64,000 bases of DNA from Escherichia coli (GTDB lineage Bacteria > Pseudomonadota > Gammaproteobacteria > Enterobacterales > Enterobacteriaceae): the NCBI RefSeq assembly GCF_036507355.1, contig NZ_AP027877.1; one strand, given 5' to 3'. Positions within the stretch are counted from its first letter, which is position 1; each line of letters starts with the position of its first letter. Under the pieces are notes generated by a model. The model saw only the letters and a program-made list of their open reading frames with translations. It was not told the DNA's origin and did no database searches. The translations under genes and the position numbers were made by a program. This document shows positions 1,527-53,306 of this stretch, piece after piece.

Positions 1527-1893
1527 GTCGACAGGGAGTCAGACAACGAAGTGAACATCAGGATGATGACACTTCTGAAGGACACACCAGGATGGTGTTT
1601 CAGGGAAAGGCTTCTGGATGAAGCGAAGAGGATGACGCAGGACGCGTTAAAGGACACCTCCAGGATGGAGAATGAGAACCGGTCAGGATGATTCGGTGGG
1701 TCAGGAAGGCCAGGGACACTTCAGGATGAAGTATCACATCGGGGTGGTGTGAGCAGGAAGCAATAGTTCAGGATGAACGATTGGCCGCAAGGCCAGAGGA
1801 AAAGTTGTCAAGGATGAGCAGGGAGCAACAAATGTAGCTGGAATGCTGCGAAACGAACCGGGAGCACTGTGAATACAGTGCTCCCTTTTTTTA
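1527..1893 (+). ncRNA. csrB: CsrB small RNA (CsrA-sequestering)
   Basis: About 370 nt with more than a dozen CAGGATG/AGGA motifs, no long ORF, ending in a GC hairpin (ggagcactgt...acagtgctcc) plus T-run at 1861-1893. Confidence 0.85.
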
Positions 1894-1937
1894 TTCCTGC
1901 TATCCTTCGCGGCAGTTTTTCTTATTGAGGTTGCTTT

Positions 1938-22565: not shown

Positions 22566-22777
22566 GAGTTCCCCGCGCCAGCGGGGATAAACCGGAGAGA
22601 GTCCAGTATCAATCCCGCGATCCGCAGAGTTCCCCGCGCCAGCGGGGATAAACCGCCGTTGCGGATCTTGAGTAGTGCCACGTCACCGAGTTCCCCGCGC
22701 CAGCGGGGATAAACCGGGTACAAAAGAGGCCCCATTCTGGCAGGGCTCGAGTTCCCCGCGCCAGCGGGGATAAACCA
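22566..22777 (+). CRISPR. Type I-E CRISPR array: 4 repeats of 29 bp (GAGTTCCCCGCGCCAGCGGGGATAAACCG) and 3 spacers of 32 bp, AT-rich leader upstream
   Basis: Repeats at 22566, 22627, 22688 and 22749 (61-bp period); last repeat ends in A; degenerate repeat remnant near 22867-22888. Confidence 0.95.
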
Positions 22778-37956: not shown

Positions 37957-38219
37957 ATATTGCCGGATAAATTAAACGCCTCTGTCAGAAATGATGGGGG
38001 CGTTTTTATTTTGCGAGCAGCATTCCTGATTTTAAACGTGAACGCCGCTGGAAGAATTATCAGGTATAGAATGGCGTCGGGTGCTTGAGGCTGTCTGGCG
38101 TTAAGCATTCGCGAGGTTCCAGATGGACAAAAGCCCCAGGCGATATTTCTATCAACCTGAGGCTCGCGTTCGAACGTAGCAATTCGGATGTTAGTCTCTT
38201 CTTTGCAGGGAGGCAAGAC

Positions 38220-38372
38220 ATGCTAACAAAATATGCCCTTGTGGCAATCATAGTACTGTGTTGTACAGTACTGGGATTCACGCTCATGGTAGGCGACTCG
38301 TTATGTGAGTTGAATATCAGAGAGCGTGGTATGGAGTTTAAGGCAGTTCTCGCTTACGAATCGAAGAAGTAG
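38220..38372 (+). CDS. Hok/Gef-family type I toxin (50 aa)
   Basis: [50 protein letters not shown]: single TM segment then the SLCE..IR…AYES.K signature; AGGGAGG RBS 7 nt upstream. Confidence 0.75.
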
Positions 38373-38761
38373 CCACCACGTGGGGGTAAAACCCCGCGTA
38401 TTGAATTGTGATGGTTTGGTCTCCTGCACCCTTTTTTAAATTTATATTTTTTATGTGAATATATTGTCTCTATTTATTATTATGAATTTCAAATGAAAAT
38501 CATAAATTTATTCACAATATAAATGTTTTATTGGCTGATATATATCACAGATAATTTTTAAAATATGCGTAAATATCCTTTAAGTTTACTGAAGGATAAA
38601 AATATTGTGACTTTCTTTGATTTCTGGGGAAAAACCCGACGCGACGAGAAAGAAGGGGGTGACGACTATCACCTTCTTTGCTGGCATTCGCTGGATGTGG
38701 CCGCGATGGGCTATTTAATGGTTAAAAGAAATTGCTTCGGGCTGGCGGTAATGACTCCAAC

Positions 38762-39265
38762 TTATTGATAGTGTTTTATGTTCAGATAATGCCCGATGAC
38801 TTTGTCATGCAGCTCCACCGATTTTGAGAACGACAGCGACTTCCGTCCCAGCCGTGCCAGGTGCTGCCTCAGATTCAGGTTATGCCGCTCAATTCGCTGC
38901 GTATATCGCTTGCTGATTACGTGCAGCTTTCCCTTCAGGCGGGATTCATACAGCGGCCAGCCATCCGTCATCCATATCACCACGTCAAAGGGTGACAGCA
39001 GGCTCATAAGACGCCCCAGCGTCGCCATCGTGCGTTCACCGAATACGTGCGCAACAACCGTCTTCCGGAGCCTGTCATACGCGTAAAACAGCCAGCGCTG
39101 GCGCGATTTAGCCCCGACATAGCCCCACTGTTCGTCCATTTCCGCGCAGACGATGACGTCACTGCCCGGCTGTATGCGCGAGGTTACCGACTGCGGCCTG
39201 AGTTTTTTAAGTGACGTAAAATCGTGTTGAGGCCAACGCCCATAATGCGGGCTGTTGCCCGGCAT
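38762..39265 (-). CDS. insB: IS1 InsB (expressed as InsAB' by a -1 frameshift)
   Basis: 167-aa ORF overlapping insA in the -1 frame. Confidence 0.9.
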
Positions 39266-39459
39266 CCAACGCCATTCATGGCCATATCAATGATTTTCTG
39301 GTGCGTACCGGGTTGAGAAGCGGTGTAAGTGAACTGCAGTTGCCATGTTTTACGGCAGTGAGAGCAGAGATAGCGCTGATGTCCGGCGGTGCTTTTGCCG
39401 TTACGCACCACCCCGTCAGTAGCTGAACAGGAGGGACAGCTGATAGAAACAGAAGCCAC
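39184..39459 (-). CDS. insA: IS1 InsA
   Basis: 91-aa [26 protein letters not shown]…. Confidence 0.9.
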
Positions 39460-41451
39460 TGGAGCACCTCAAAAACACCATCATACACTAAATCAGTAAG
39501 TTGGCAGCATCACCCGGGCTGGCTGATTATTTTCGTCAATTAGGGATTTCTGACAAGGAACAGGCGGCTCAATTTTTCGCCTGGTTGTTGTGCTGGCACG
39601 ATATTGGAAAATTTGCCCGCTCATTTCAGCAACTTTACCTGCACCCACAACTCAAGGTTCCGGAAGGCGCAAGAAAGAATTACGAAAAGATCTCTCATTC
39701 AACGCTGGGCTACTGGTTGTGGCATCATTATTTAAGTGAATGCGAAGAATTGCTTCCTGCCTCTTCACTCTCTACTCGCAAACTTAAACGTGTAATAGCG
39801 ATGTGGATGCCCATGACTACCGGGCATCATGGTCGGCCCCCTGACCGTATTGATGAACTGGATAATTTTCTGCCTGAAGACAAAGTTGCCGCGCGAGATT
39901 TTCTCCTTGAAATCAAGGCACTGTGTCCGCTCATAGAGATTCCCACATTCTGGGATAATGACGAGGGAGTTGAACTTTTAAAACAACTTTCCTGGTATAT
40001 CTCTGCAACAGTCGTACTTGCAGACTGGACGGGTTCGTCAACGCGATTTTTTCCACGCGTCGCACACCCAATGGATATTAAAGATTACTGGCAGAAAACT
40101 TTAGTTCAGGCTCAAAACGCCTTAACCGTCTTTCCTCCAAAAGCAGAAACCGCACCTTTCACCGGAATTAATACGCTGTTTCCTTTTATTGAGCACCCGA
40201 CACCATTACAGCAAAAGGTGCTGGATCTGGATATCAGCCAGCCAGGGCCACAGTTATTTATTCTGGAAGACGTGACTGGCGCAGGTAAAACAGAAGCGGC
40301 GCTTATCCTGGCGCACAGGTTGATGGCTGCGAGGAAAGCACAGGGTTTGTTTTTTGGCCTGCCAACAATGGCAACGGCCAATGCCATGTACGATCGGCTG
40401 GTCAAAACCTGGCTTGCTTTCTATTCGCCAGAGTCCCGCCCCAGCCTGGTGCTGGCACACAGTGCCCGCACATTAATGGACCGCTTTAATGAATCACTCT
40501 GGTCCGGTGATTTAGTCGGGTCAGAAGAACCGGATGAACAAGCGTTCAGTCAAGGATGTGCAGCCTGGTTTGCCGACAGTAACAAGAAGGCTTTACTGGC
40601 TGAAATTGGCGTCGGCACGCTGGATCAGGCGATGATGGCGGTGATGCCGTTCAAACATAATAATCTGCGGCTTCTGGGGCTGAGTAACAAAATCCTGCTG
40701 GCTGATGAGATCCACGCCTGTGACGCTTACATGTCATGCATTCTTGAAGGGCTGATCGAGCGGCAGGCGCGTGGTGGAAACAGCGTCATTTTGCTTTCTG
40801 CTACGTTATCCCAACAGCAGCGCGACAAACTCGTCGCCGCCTTTGCGCGTGGCACAGAGGGCCAGCAAGAAGCTCCGTTCCTTGAAAAGGATGATTACCC
40901 CTGGCTGACGCATGTCACGAAATCCGATGTGAACTCACACCGGGTAGCGACGCGCAAAGACGTTGAGCGTAGCGTCAGCGTGGGTTGGCTTCATAGTGAA
41001 CAAGAGAGTATTGCGCGTATCGAATCGGCGGTAAGTCAGGGAAAATGCATCGCCTGGATCCGCAATTCTGTCGATGACGCTATTAAGGTTCATCGTCAGC
41101 TGCTTGCCCGCGGCGTCATTCCCGCTTCCAGCCTTTCACTCTTTCATAGCCGCTTTGCTTTTAGCGATCGCCAGCGAATCGAAACGGAAACGCTGGCACG
41201 CTTTGGTAAAAATTGTAATTTAAAAAGATCATCGCAAGTCATTGTTTGTACACAAGTAATTGAGCAAAGTGTGGATATTGACCTGGACGAAATGATCTCC
41301 GACCTTGCCCCCATTGATTTGCTGATCCAGCGAGCGGGGCGATTACAGCGACATATCCGCGATATTAATGGTCAGTTAAAGCGTGACGGAAAAGACGAGC
41401 GTTCCCCTCCTGAATTGCTGATTCTGGCCCCCGTCTGGGACGACGCTCCTG

Positions 41452-41781
41452 GTGACGAATGGTTCGGCAGTGCCATGCGTACGCGCCTTTACAGAGGCCG
41501 CGCTTAAAGTCTCACCAACCGGAAAACAAAACAGCTTTGCCAGCCGTGCCTACGCCTCCTGGGCGCTGGCGGAAAAAGGCACTGTTCAACCGCGTTCTCT
41601 GGCGGCGGCTTTCTATGAACCCATTAATGGTACCCGTCAGTTAGATGTGGCGGTGCAGCGTATTACAACGCTTCGCGAAAACATGAATACGGTCTACGAA
41701 CAGAAGACTGAATGCGCAAGTTTTGACGTGATGAACAAACAGGGAAGCATGAAGGACGTACTGGACTTTATCTGCGCGTAA
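41452..41781 (+). pseudogene. 3' remnant of a cas gene, most plausibly the end of cas7/casC fused out of frame to cas3
   Basis: 109-aa frame ending 10 bp before the cas5 ATG, the position casC occupies in an intact I-E operon; the alternative reading is a frameshifted cas3 tail. Confidence 0.4.
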
Positions 41782-41791
41782 GGGGCGGCTT

Positions 41792-42973
<1,182 letters not shown>

Positions 42974-43069
42974 GTTATGTGTTCTTTAAAAATAAGGAAA
43001 TGTTTGAATTTAGTTGGTAGATTGTTGATGTGGAATAAATTTGTTTAAAAACAGATATGTATGCTTAGT

Positions 43070-43281
43070 GTGTTCCCGGCGCCAGCGGGGATAAACCGAC
43101 GAGGGGCTCGTTATTCGGGAAATTACAAAAGTGTTCCCCGCGCCAGCGGGGATAAACCGGCCCAGGGATTTGTTCAATCCAGCGTGCCGCTGTGTTCCCC
43201 GCATCAGCGGGGATAAACCGGGCGCACTGGATGCGATGATGGATATCACTTAGAATTCCCCGCCCCTGCGGTAGAACTCCC
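43070..43281 (+). CRISPR. Type I-E CRISPR array next to cas2: 3 repeats GTGTTCCC(C/G)GCGCCAGCGGGGATAAACCG plus a degenerate terminal repeat, 3 spacers of 32 bp
   Basis: Repeats at 43070, 43131 and 43192, degenerate repeat at 43253; 61-bp period; AT-rich leader at 42974-43069. Confidence 0.95.
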
Positions 43282-43301: not shown

Positions 43302-44339
43302 TCAAGACGCCTTCGCCAACTCTTTCACCAGAGGTAGCATTATCCGCATAACGTCACGGCAGCGACGTTCTATTCTTCCAGGAAGTGCCTTATCAATATG
43401 CTGTTGATTATCCAGTCTTACGTCATGCCAGCTATTTCCCGCAGGGAATGCGGCTGTTTTTGCGCGTTGCTGATAACCATCCTTATTCCCAAGATTCCAG
43501 TTAGTCGCTTCCACCGAAAGTACAGCAATGCCCGCTTTGTCGAATATTTCTGCGTCATTACAACACCCAGTGCCTTTCGGATAATTTTTATTCAAACCCG
43601 GATTGGTCGTTGCGGCAATTCCATGACTACGCGCAATTGCCAGCGCCCTGTCGCGCGTTAATTTCCTTACTGCTTCAGGTGTTTTTACGCCACTGTTGAA
43701 ATACAGCTTATCGCCAACGATCAGATTATCGAGATTAATCACCAATAAAGTATTTTTCTTTTCGGTATCACTCATGCGCTTGAGGAAATTCTCAGCGCCT
43801 AATTTCCCTTCTTCTTCGCCACTGGTTGCTACAAAACGAATGCCATATTCGGTTGGCGTATTTTTCAGGCGTTCTGCCAGCTCCAGCATGACACCTAAAC
43901 CTGCGGCATTATCATCCATTCCTTGTAACGTCAGCCCGCCGAGATTGGCATCTGCATCTGCGTCGCTCTGCGGGGCATAGGTATCCAGATGCGCCATAAT
44001 AATGATCTGCTGCGGCGCTTTGCCTTCATGAGCGGCAATCACCGTACTTCCCGTCACGTTGTGCCAGTTTTTGCGGTTATCGCGGGCGGTATAAATATAT
44101 CGGCTATTAAACGTACGAATATCACTGCGGTAACCCATTTGCTGAAACTGTTGCCGAATATAATCGGCAGATAACATTTCTGCAGGAGTTCCGGTCATGC
44201 GTCCCGGAAAGAAAGTGGCAATATGTCGCGCCTGTGTATTGGCAAAATCGCCAGGTTTAGGTGACGAGGCGTGTACGGGGAGAATAAAGCATACGCCGAG
44301 CGCCAGGGCAGCGGTACGGTGGCGCAATGCGGAAAACAT
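43302..44339 (-). CDS. iap: Alkaline phosphatase isozyme conversion aminopeptidase
   Basis: 345-aa ORF with signal peptide. Confidence 0.85.
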   Translation of the reverse strand: MFSALRHRTAALALGVCFILPVHASSPKPGDFANTQARHIATFFPGRMTGTPAEMLSADYIRQQFQQMGYRSDIRTFNSRYIYTARDNRKNWHNVTGSTVIAAHEGKAPQQIIIMAHLDTYAPQSDADADANLGGLTLQGMDDNAAGLGVMLELAERLKNTPTEYGIRFVATSGEEEGKLGAENFLKRMSDTEKKNTLLVINLDNLIVGDKLYFNSGVKTPEAVRKLTRDRALAIARSHGIAATTNPGLNKNYPKGTGCCNDAEIFDKAGIAVLSVEATNWNLGNKDGYQQRAKTAAFPAGNSWHDVRLDNQQHIDKALPGRIERRCRDVMRIMLPLVKELAKAS

Positions 44340-52166: not shown

Positions 52167-53306
52167 ATGAGCGCGGGAAGCCCAAAATTCACCGTTCGCC
52201 GCATTGCGGCTTTGTCACTGGTTTCGCTATGGCTGGCAGGCTGTTCTGACACTTCAAATCCACCGGCACCGGTCAGTTCCGTCAATGGCAATGCGCCTGC
52301 AAATACCAATTCTGGTATGTTGATTACGCCGCCGCCGAAAATGGGGACGACGTCTACAGCGCAGCAACCGCAAATTCAGCCGGTACAGCAGCCACAAATT
52401 CAGGCTACTCAACAACCGCAAATCCAGCCAGTGCAGCCAGTAGCTCAGCAGCCGGTACAGATGGAAAACGGACGCATCGTCTATAACCGTCAGTATGGGA
52501 ACATTCCGAAAGGCAGTTATAGCGGCAGTACATACACCGTGAAAAAAGGCGACACACTTTTCTATATCGCCTGGATTACTGGCAACGATTTCCGTGACCT
52601 TGCTCAGCGCAACAATATTCAGGCACCATACGCGCTGAACGTTGGTCAGACCTTACAGGTGGGGAATGCTTCCGGTACGCCAATCACTGGCGGAAATGCC
52701 ATTACCCAGGCCGACGCAGCAGAGCAAGGAGTTGTGATCAAGCCTGCACAAAATTCCACCGTTGCTGTTGCGTCGCAACCGACAATTACGTATTCTGAGT
52801 CTTCGGGTGAACAGAGTGCTAACAAAATGTTGCCGAACAACAAGCCAACTGCGACCACGGTCACAGCGCCTGTAACGGTACCAACAGCAAGCACAACCGA
52901 GCCGACTGTCAGCAGTACATCAACCAGTACGCCTATCTCCACCTGGCGCTGGCCGACTGAGGGCAAAGTGATCGAAACCTTTGGCGCTTCTGAGGGGGGC
53001 AACAAGGGGATTGATATCGCAGGCAGCAAAGGACAGGCAATTATCGCGACCGCAGATGGCCGCGTTGTTTATGCTGGTAACGCGCTGCGCGGCTACGGTA
53101 ATCTGATTATCATCAAACATAATGATGATTACCTGAGTGCCTACGCCCATAACGACACAATGCTGGTCCGGGAACAACAAGAAGTGAAGGCGGGGCAAAA
53201 AATAGCAACCATGGGTAGCACCGGAACCAGTTCAACACGCTTGCATTTTGAAATTCGTTACAAGGGGAAATCCGTAAACCCGCTGCGTTATTTGCCGCAG
53301 CGATAA
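52167..53306 (+). CDS. nlpD: Murein hydrolase activator lipoprotein NlpD (LysM and M23 domains); rpoS promoters are known to lie within it
   Basis: 379-aa ORF with lipobox LAGC and Q/P-rich tandem repeats. Confidence 0.9.

What the first reader, a model, noticed from the sequence alone, without database searches (positions are those of the whole stretch)
43070..43281. cas2-proximal array spacers
The spacers are acgaggggctcgttattcgggaaattacaaaa, gcccagggatttgttcaatccagcgtgccgct and ggcgcactggatgcgatgatggatatcactta, the last bordered by a degenerate terminal repeat. The first repeat carries CCCGGCGCC instead of CCCCGCGCC. Three spacers is very short for this locus, which fits long inactivity or array contraction.
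Basis: seen in the sequence. Interest (0 to 1): 0.35.

Follow-up and report, generated by a model that had tools for sequence, protein, structure and literature searches.

The report
Relic E. coli CRISPR1 array
This is the well-known CRISPR array next to cas2 and iap in E. coli, here reduced to three old spacers and stranded beside a cas operon wrecked by two deletions and an IS1 insertion, so it is an ordinary decayed immune locus.

Summary
Window 43070-43281 holds three 29-nt type I-E repeats, three 32-nt spacers and a degenerate terminal repeat (18/29 matches to the consensus). It lies between cas2 and iap, behind a leader identical to that of O157:H7. Repeat 1 does carry CCCGGCGCC.

Spacer 3, the loop-variant repeat before it and the terminal repeat form the ancestral trailer of the species. 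Spacer 3 is in 4250 of 5426 complete E. coli genomes, including K-12. Spacers 2 and 3 together occur in 308 genomes (the O157:H7/O55:H7 group). Spacer 1 belongs to this lineage; the only other copy (31/32) sits deep in the array of strain GF131. No spacer has a detectable phage, plasmid or metagenome target.

IS1 splits cas3. One deletion removes the cas3 3' end, casA, casB and most of cas7. A second removes most of cas5, all of cas6e and the first 39 codons of cas1. Only cas2 is intact. Without Cas6e, Cascade or Cas3 the array cannot give immunity.

The repeat 1 mutation is found only in this lineage and weakens the hairpin. It was never copied into a newer repeat, so no spacer was added after it arose. 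"Long inactivity" is supported; contraction is possible but not shown. This is already known biology and of low interest.

The parts
42974..43069 (+). AT-rich CRISPR1 leader (L2 / cas-E2 type) between the cas2 stop codon and repeat 1
   Evidence: 100% identical to the O157:H7 F6667 leader. The last 30 nt plus repeat 1 are found in 849 E. coli genomes, each with exactly one mismatch, consistent with the repeat 1 variant.
43070..43098 (+). Repeat 1, the leader-proximal repeat, with a C9>G change (CCCGGCGCC) in the 5' arm of the hairpin stem
   Evidence: The predicted hairpin drops from -15.2 to -10.9 kcal/mol with a G.G mismatch in the stem. The variant is absent from all 849 E. coli genomes with this leader and present in L005, L006 and L007.
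43099..43130 (+). Spacer 1, ACGAGGGGCTCGTTATTCGGGAAATTACAAAA, specific to this lineage
   Evidence: No exact copy in 5426 complete E. coli genomes. One 31/32 copy lies third from the trailer in the array of strain GF131. No protospacer was found in phages, plasmids, IMG/VR or JGI metagenomes.
43131..43159 (+). Repeat 2, an exact match to the GTGTT-type I-E consensus
43160..43191 (+). Spacer 2, GCCCAGGGATTTGTTCAATCCAGCGTGCCGCT, shared with the O157:H7/O55:H7 group
   Evidence: Identical in O157:H7 F6667 and in the O55:H7-like strain FDAARGOS_946. Spacers 2 and 3 occur together in 308 of 5426 genomes.
43192..43220 (+). Repeat 3, a loop variant (GCCA>ATCA) with the stem intact
   Evidence: Hairpin energy -14.4 kcal/mol. 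The same variant repeat precedes the same spacer in K-12 C600 and in O157:H7.
43221..43252 (+). Spacer 3, GGCGCACTGGATGCGATGATGGATATCACTTA, the ancestral trailer spacer of the species
   Evidence: Found once per genome in 4250 of 5426 complete E. coli genomes, always on the chromosome. K-12 C600 has it at 31/32 in the same terminal position.
43253..43281 (+). Degenerate terminal repeat, GAATTCCCCGCCCCTGCGGTAGAACTCCC
   Evidence: 18/29 matches to the consensus. Nearly the same sequence ends the arrays of O157:H7 and K-12, followed by the same trailer CAGCTCCCATTTTCAAACCCA.
42680..42973 (+). cas2e, the only intact cas gene
   Evidence: TIGR01873 E=1.8e-39. The 97-aa product is identical to O157:H7 Cas2e.
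41820..42683 (+). Chimeric cas1e ORF: 19 foreign residues read from out-of-frame cas5 sequence, then Cas1 residues 40-307
   Evidence: The deletion 2 junction is at about 41876/41877. The product aligns to residues 40-304 of E. coli Cas1 3NKD. TIGR03638 matches profile positions 36-268 of 269.
41482..41877 (+). Remnant between the two deletions: the last 300 nt of cas7e and the first 86 nt of cas5e
   Evidence: Corresponds to L003 7673-8068. TIGR01869 matches only profile positions 248-325 of 325. Junction sequences are shown.
39515..41481 (+). Internal fragment of cas3, cut at the 5' end by IS1 and at the 3' end by deletion 1
   Evidence: Corresponds to L003 2186-4152. The Cas3 HD and helicase-core domains match, but only profile positions 52-665 of 878.
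38747..39514 (-). Full-length IS1 (768 bp) inserted in cas3, flanked by the 9-bp target duplication CGGGCTGGC
   Evidence: It is absent from the otherwise 99.9-100% identical assemblies L005 and L006, so it is the most recent event.
38565..38746 (+). First 182 nt of cas3, upstream of IS1
   Evidence: Mapped from the cas3 start in L003 (2013) and L005 (3523).
43302..44339 (-). iap, the conserved gene flanking the trailer end of CRISPR1
   Evidence: NF007568 E=6.5e-213. The protein is identical to BED21185.1 of E. coli.
22566..22777 (+). Partner I-E array (CRISPR2 locus): four GAGTT-type repeats and three spacers

Best explanation
This is the E. coli type I-E CRISPR1 array, also called CRISPR2.1 or the iap array, in a vestigial state. 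It was built by polarised spacer addition at the leader end. Its base is the species-wide ancestral module (loop-variant repeat, spacer 3, degenerate terminal repeat). Above that lies spacer 2, shared with the O157:H7/O55:H7 group, and on top lies one lineage-specific spacer.

In a working system the leader drives a pre-crRNA. Cas6e cuts it at each repeat hairpin, and Cascade plus Cas3 use the 61-nt crRNAs to destroy matching DNA. Cas1-Cas2 add new spacers by duplicating repeat 1. Here that machinery is gone. cas6e, casA and casB are deleted. cas7 and cas5 are stubs. cas3 is truncated and also split by IS1. cas1 has lost its first 39 codons. The array therefore most likely can be neither processed, used nor extended.

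Shown: the array anatomy, the sharing of its spacers, the cas lesions and their relative order (deletion 1, then deletion 2, then IS1), and that the repeat 1 mutation belongs only to this lineage.

Inferred: loss of interference and of adaptation; that the repeat 1 mutation arose after the last integration, because repeat 2 is consensus; and that the array is a neutral relic kept by slow turnover.
For: - Anatomy and position.
- Ancestral trailer: spacer 3 is in 4250 of 5426 genomes, once per genome. K-12 C600 has the same module at its array end.
- Spacers 2 and 3 occur together in 308 genomes and in O157:H7 and O55:H7-type arrays.
- Cas lesions were mapped base by base against the intact O157:H7 operon. 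Domain scans show only fragments of Cas3 and Cas7 and a Cas1 starting at residue 40. Cas2 is identical to that of O157:H7.
- IS1 has a 9-bp target duplication and is missing from the near-identical sister assemblies.
- Metagenome contig L011 carries deletion 1 but reads on into cas5 past the deletion 2 junction.
- The repeat 1 variant is absent from 849 genomes with this leader and weakens the hairpin by about 4.3 kcal/mol.
- The partner array is also short.
- Literature: repeat number tracks cas integrity, and the trailer spacers are the conserved ones (PMC2886076). IS elements and deletions reshape the CRISPR-I locus of E. coli (PMC3903273).
Against: - Only 64 kb of the genome is visible, so a second I-E cas set elsewhere cannot be formally excluded. 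Touchon & Rocha found I-E cas genes only beside CRISPR1 (PMC2886076).
- No expression data exist. The promoter scan found no sigma-70 consensus in the leader at its strict threshold, which says nothing either way.
- O157:H7 has a complete annotated cas operon and an array of the same length. Shortness therefore need not result from the cas decay seen here.
- The truncated Cas1 keeps its catalytic C-terminal domain. Loss of adaptation is inferred, not shown.
Confidence: 0.9

Rival explanations
1. The array was once much longer and shrank to three spacers. Recombination between identical repeats removed internal spacers after, or while, the cas genes decayed.
For: Arrays in the same spacer 2 + spacer 3 group can be long: FDAARGOS_946 has 14 spacers above the same trailer. 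The spacer 1 homologue in GF131 lies under eight newer spacers, so spacer 1 may be old rather than the last one acquired. Touchon & Rocha conclude that periods without cas activity are associated with spacer loss (PMC2886076).
Against: No genome in the searched sets shows spacer 1 in a longer array above spacer 2. O157:H7 strains with intact cas operons have equally short arrays. The four assemblies of this lineage are identical, so no ongoing loss is visible.
Confidence: 0.3
2. The array is still used. It is transcribed and processed in trans by another I-E Cas set elsewhere in the genome or on a plasmid, so it still gives immunity.
For: The leader is intact and identical to that of O157:H7. 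Repeats 2 and 3 keep full hairpins. CRISPR2 is normally served in trans by the cas genes beside CRISPR1 (PMC2886076).
Against: In E. coli, I-E cas genes were found only beside CRISPR1 (PMC2886076), and that copy is destroyed here. None of the spacers matches any phage or plasmid in the searched sets. The first repeat has drifted.
Confidence: 0.03
3. Spacer 1 reached this array by recombination with a different array, or arrived with the incoming cas-E2 module, rather than by ordinary acquisition in this lineage. The array would then be a mosaic.
For: The only other copy of spacer 1 (31/32, same register) sits in GF131 between GTGTT-type repeats, just above GAGTT-type repeats and a different trailer. 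Almendros et al. argue that the cas-E2 module entered at the array and brought at least one CRISPR unit (PMC3903273).
Against: Independent capture of the same PAM-defined protospacer gives the same boundaries and fits the one-base difference. O157:H7 and O55:H7 arrays have other spacers at this position. Only two arrays carry the spacer.
Confidence: 0.15

Closest known systems
E. coli K-12 CRISPR1 (CRISPR2.1, iap-adjacent) array
   Same: The genomic position is the same, between cas2 and iap. Repeats are 29 nt and spacers 32 nt. The trailer module is the same: loop-variant repeat GTGTTCCCCGCATCAGCGGGGATAAACCG, spacer GGCGCACTGGATGCGATGATGGATATCACTT(G/A), degenerate terminal repeat and trailer sequence.
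   Different: K-12 C600 has 13 spacers, GAGTT-type repeats, the L1 leader and an annotated cas2 next to the array. The window has 3 spacers, GTGTT-type repeats, the L2 leader and a wrecked operon.
E. coli O157:H7 / O55:H7 CRISPR1 arrays (cas-E2 type)
   Same: The leader is identical. Spacers 2 and 3, repeat 3 and the terminal repeat are identical. O157:H7 F6667 has an array of exactly the same length, 328 bp between cas2 and iap. The cas genes are of the same variant, at 95-99% DNA identity.
   Different: The leader-proximal spacer differs, and O157:H7 has a consensus repeat 1. The O157:H7 operon is annotated as complete from cas3 to cas2.
Degraded or orphan I-E loci described in Shigella and in E. 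coli B/BL21 (Touchon & Rocha 2010; Almendros et al. 2014)
   Same: The cas genes are inactivated by IS insertion and internal deletions, while the array and leader persist. Few repeats remain where only relics of the cas genes are left (PMC2886076; PMC3903273).
   Different: The particular breakpoints (cas3 to cas7, cas5 to cas1) and the IS1 site are specific to this lineage or strain. The source is labelled E. coli, not Shigella.
IS-mediated inactivation of CRISPR-Cas (Nat Commun 2023, PMC10359306)
   Same: A natural IS transposition into a cas nuclease gene (abstract seen).
   Different: Here IS1 landed in a cas3 gene already disabled by a deletion. It is a late neutral hit, not the inactivating event.

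Membership tests
Type I-E CRISPR array of E. coli (CRISPR1 / CRISPR2.1) | 29-nt repeats matching the consensus G(A/T)GTTCCCCGCGCCAGCGGGGATAAACCG | tested here: met
   Three repeats match at 28/29, 29/29 and 27/29. Zero matches are expected by chance.
Type I-E CRISPR array of E. coli (CRISPR1 / CRISPR2.1) | Unique spacers of 32-33 nt, giving a 61-nt period | tested here: met
   Spacing is 61 and 61 nt. All three spacers are 32 nt.
Type I-E CRISPR array of E. coli (CRISPR1 / CRISPR2.1) | Palindromic repeat that forms the hairpin bound by Cas6e | tested here: met
   Repeats 2 and 3 fold into a 7-bp stem with a 4-nt loop (-15.2 and -14.4 kcal/mol). Repeat 1 is weakened to -10.9 kcal/mol by a G.G mismatch.
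Type I-E CRISPR array of E. coli (CRISPR1 / CRISPR2.1) | AT-rich leader on the cas2 side and a degenerate terminal repeat on the iap side | tested here: met
   The leader is 100% identical to that of O157:H7. The terminal repeat matches at 18/29 and is shared with K-12 and O157:H7.
Type I-E CRISPR array of E. coli (CRISPR1 / CRISPR2.1) | Location between cas2e and iap in the cysH-cysD interval | tested here: met
   cas2e lies at 42680-42973, iap at 43302-44339 (-), with cysH upstream and cysD downstream.
Functional type I-E CRISPR-Cas system | Complete cas3-casA-casB-cas7-cas5-cas6e-cas1-cas2 operon | tested here: not met
   casA, casB and cas6e are absent. cas7, cas5, cas3 and cas1 are truncated, and IS1 sits in cas3.
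Functional type I-E CRISPR-Cas system | Transcription of the array and processing into 61-nt crRNAs | not testable with these tools
   No expression data are available. The consensus promoter scan found nothing in the leader, which is uninformative.
Functional type I-E CRISPR-Cas system | Spacers matching mobile-element protospacers flanked by a PAM | tested here: not met
   No match for spacers 1-3 in 50,697 phage records, 72,556 plasmid records, IMG/VR or (spacer 1 only) JGI metagenomes. The single plasmid-set hit to spacer 3 is a 4.8-Mb chromosome filed as a plasmid (H56).

The most novel reading that the evidence does not exclude
Spacer 1 occurs in only two arrays that are otherwise unrelated: this lineage and strain GF131. 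In both it sits close to the boundary between the newer GTGTT-type repeats and the older trailer. It may therefore be one of the CRISPR units that travelled with the cas-E2 module when that module replaced cas-E1, or a marker of recombination between arrays. That would make it a physical trace of the module exchange proposed by Almendros et al.
Probability: 0.12. Interest if true: 0.25.

Novelty: already known. Interest (0 to 1): 0.1.

Why it matters
It matters little beyond annotation. The locus is a clean, datable example of how an E. coli CRISPR-Cas system dies: an internal deletion, a second deletion, drift of the first repeat, then an IS1 hit, while the ancient trailer spacers persist. 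The three-spacer allele, with a lineage-specific leader-end spacer and a lineage-specific repeat 1 SNP, could serve as a typing marker for this uncommon lineage. No complete RefSeq E. coli genome exceeds 98.8% identity over the flanking 19.7 kb. It also warns against reading array length alone as evidence of activity, because O157:H7 has a complete annotated operon and the same array length.

Tried and rejected
- **Shigella origin.** I suspected this because of the IS1 and the cas decay, and because no complete RefSeq E. coli genome matched closely. I rejected it. The Iap and Cas7-fragment proteins are exact matches to BED21185.1 and BED21181.1 of an E. coli record of 4,643,937 bp, and the window holds only one IS1.
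- **Protospacer searches, all negative.** For the three CRISPR1 spacers I tried blastn word-11 against phages and plasmids and exact scans of IMG/VR. For spacer 1 I also tried a pattern degenerate at the 6n positions and at the GF131 variant base, against IMG/VR and JGI metagenomes, and a mismatch-tolerant search of 5426 E. coli genomes for chromosomal or prophage targets. That last search found only the GF131 array.
- **Full-text paper search** for the spacer sequences found 0 papers.
- **Rfam.** No CRISPR repeat family matched at the gathering threshold or at E<=1. The two weak hits (snoR135, Chlorobi-1) are chance.
- **Shared breakpoint with GF131.** BLAST seemed to show the GF131 cas3 truncation ending where deletion 1 begins. 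I rejected this: GF131 reads about 30 nt further into cas3 before joining a repeat.
- **Promoter scan** of the leader found no consensus site, which is uninformative.

Full report
**Observation**

The repeat finder reports three 29-nt direct repeats spaced 61 nt apart, at 43070, 43131 and 43192. The 29 nt at 43253-43281 (GAATTCCCCGCCCCTGCGGTAGAACTCCC) match the consensus at 18/29 positions. That is a typical degenerate terminal repeat and falls below the tool's threshold. The three spacers are each 32 nt and read exactly as quoted.

The consensus GTGTTCCCCGCGCCAGCGGGGATAAACCG, with up to 3 mismatches, matches 7 times in the window against 0.00 expected in shuffles. Three matches are this array. 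The other four form a second array at 22566-22777.

Repeat 1 carries CCCGGCGCC. Repeat 3 carries a second variant, CGCATCAGCG.

**Context**

- Upstream on the same strand lies cas2e (42680-42973; TIGR01873, E=1.8e-39).
- Downstream on the opposite strand lies iap (43302-44339; NF007568, E=6.5e-213).
- The 96-nt AT-rich stretch between cas2 and repeat 1 is 100% identical to the CRISPR1 leader of O157:H7 strain F6667.

This is therefore the classical E. coli CRISPR1 (CRISPR2.1) locus, oriented leader to trailer on the + strand. The window is from E. coli. Its Iap protein and its Cas7-fragment ORF are exact matches to BED21185.1 and BED21181.1 (locus tag VEE46_09490) on a 4,643,937-bp record. It is an uncommon lineage: over the flanking 19.7 kb, no complete RefSeq E. 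coli genome exceeds 98.8% identity.

**Spacer history**

*Spacer 3.* It occurs once per genome, always on the chromosome, in 4250 of 5426 complete E. coli genomes. In K-12 C600 it is the last spacer (31/32). There it is preceded by the same loop-variant repeat and followed by a near-identical degenerate repeat and the same trailer. The module of repeat 3, spacer 3 and the terminal repeat is thus the ancestral anchor of the species. This matches Touchon & Rocha's finding that the trailer-end spacers are the conserved ones (PMC2886076).

*Spacer 2.* Spacers 2 and 3 together occur in 308 genomes. These include O157:H7 and O55:H7-type strains, whose arrays range from 3 to 14 spacers above the same base.

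*Spacer 1.* It has no exact copy in the 5426 genomes. A mismatch-tolerant search found a single 31/32 copy. That copy is third from the trailer in the array of strain GF131, with different neighbours and a different trailer.

*Targets.* None of the three spacers has a detectable target:
- no match in 50,697 phage records;
- no match in 72,556 plasmid records, apart from a 4.8-Mb chromosome filed as a plasmid;
- no exact match in IMG/VR;
- for spacer 1, no match to a pattern relaxed at the 6n positions, in IMG/VR or JGI metagenomes.

**The cas operon is wrecked**

I mapped the window onto the intact O157:H7 F6667 operon (annotation, BLAST, junction sequences).

1. **IS1 insertion.** A full-length 768-bp IS1 sits at 38747-39514, flanked by the 9-bp duplication CGGGCTGGC. 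It splits cas3 after nt 182.
2. **Deletion 1.** It removes 3,520 bp: the 3' end of cas3, all of casA and casB, and the first 756 nt of cas7. The junction is at 41481/41482.
3. **Deletion 2.** It removes about 1,405 bp: all but the first 86 nt of cas5, all of cas6e, and the first 116 nt of cas1. The junction is at about 41876/41877, with a 2-nt GA microhomology.

Domain scans agree. The Cas3 ORF covers profile positions 52-665 of 878. The Cas7 ORF covers only positions 248-325 of 325.

The 'Cas1' ORF is a chimera. Its first 19 residues are foreign. The rest aligns to residues 40-304 of the solved E. coli Cas1 structure 3NKD. Only Cas2 is intact, and it is identical to that of O157:H7.

**Order of events**

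Three independent assemblies are 99.95-100% identical to the window: L005 from GCA_905398585.1, L006 and L007. L005 and L006 span both deletion junctions, and L007 (which begins at window 41621) spans the second. All three include repeat 1 with its variant, and L005 and L007 carry the complete identical array. L005 and L006, which span the insertion site, lack the IS1. The IS1 hit is therefore the most recent event and is specific to this strain.

A 574-bp metagenome contig (L011) carries the deletion 1 junction but reads on into cas5 beyond the deletion 2 junction. Deletion 1 thus came first, or at least exists on its own.

**Repeat 1**

The C-to-G change replaces the fourth pair of the 7-bp stem with a G.G mismatch. 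The predicted hairpin energy goes from -15.2 to -10.9 kcal/mol. The repeat 3 change lies in the loop and leaves the stem intact (-14.4 kcal/mol).

All 849 complete E. coli genomes with this leader differ from the 59-nt query (leader end plus repeat 1) by exactly one mismatch, so none carries the repeat 1 variant.

From established knowledge of I-E adaptation, each new repeat is a copy of the leader-proximal repeat. I cite this from memory (Yosef et al. 2012, NAR). A mutated repeat 1 next to a consensus repeat 2 therefore means that no spacer has been integrated since the mutation arose. This is inference, but it fits the disabled cas1.

**Mechanism**

In a working system:
- the leader drives a pre-crRNA;
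- Cas6e cleaves at the base of each hairpin;
- Cascade and Cas3 carry out interference;
- Cas1-Cas2 extend the array at repeat 1.

Here Cas6e, Cse1 and Cse2 are missing. Cas7 and Cas5 are stubs, Cas3 is broken twice, and Cas1 lacks part of its N-terminal domain. The array is best read as a neutral relic that can be neither processed, used nor extended.

Touchon & Rocha report the same pattern. Repeat number is high with complete cas genes and falls to a few copies where only relics remain, and the repeat numbers of CRISPR1 and CRISPR2 are positively correlated across strains (PMC2886076). In this window CRISPR2 also has only three spacers. Almendros et al. describe IS-driven and deletion-driven variants of this locus and the two cas-E variants with their L1 and L2 leaders (PMC3903273). 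The window has the E2/L2 type with GTGTT repeats.

'Long inactivity' is supported by much stronger evidence than array length. 'Very short' needs tempering. CRISPR1 ranges from 1 to 28 repeats per genome, 433 repeats in 43 genomes. O157:H7 F6667 has a complete annotated operon and an array of identical length. Contraction remains possible, since relatives have up to 14 spacers over the same base and the GF131 copy of spacer 1 is deep in its array. It is not demonstrated.

**Novelty**

This is already known biology, in the locus where CRISPR repeats were first seen. The particular allele is new only in the trivial sense: spacer 1, the repeat 1 SNP, the two breakpoints and the IS1 site. Interest is low.

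Noticed in passing
window 22717-22748 (third spacer of the CRISPR2 array at 22566-22777): The spacer GGTACAAAAGAGGCCCCATTCTGGCAGGGCTC matches traD of the F plasmid at 29/32, and essentially all of the ~4,680 plasmid records matched in that search, mostly conjugative, are this same traD match (all 29 traD-type rows listed are 29/32). In F the protospacer is preceded by ATG, a permissive I-E PAM from memory. The mismatches fall at spacer positions 14, 18 and 30; 18 and 30 are 6n positions that Cascade does not pair. With a working Cascade this spacer would probably target F-type plasmids.
   Followed up: partly
window 38079-38235: A sok antitoxin RNA (Rfam RF01794, 105 bits) lies between cysH and cas3. 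A hok-family gene is annotated at the same place in O157:H7 and called in the sister assemblies. This fits the hok/sok element that Almendros et al. draw at this locus.
   Followed up: no
L008 (E. coli GF131, NZ_CP172134.1) 1-2700: In GF131 a truncated cas3 is joined directly to the first CRISPR repeat. casA to cas2 and the leader are all deleted, yet an 11-spacer array remains. This is another independent route to an orphan array.
   Followed up: partly
L011 (ENA metagenome contig ERZ926208, 574 bp): This contig carries the same cas3-cas7 deletion junction as the window (99.0% identity) but keeps cas5 beyond the window's second junction. It looks like an intermediate stage of the decay found in a metagenome.
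   Followed up: partly
L004 (E. coli NRZ99027-2, NZ_OZ501666.1): An unrelated strain also has an IS1 in cas3 and a cas3-cas7 fusion, but at different positions (annotation, mapping). IS1 insertion in cas3 and cas3-to-cas7 deletions therefore recur independently in cas-E2 operons.
   Followed up: no
window 1536-1895: A full-length CsrB sRNA (RF00018, 384 bits). It serves only to place the window on the E. coli map.
   Followed up: no
window 52365-52429: A 24-nt tandem repeat, 2.7 copies at 70% match (CAACCGCAAATTCAGCCGACACAA). It lies in the stretch whose E. coli matches include nlpD among their annotated genes and is probably a coding repeat. I did not examine it.
   Followed up: no
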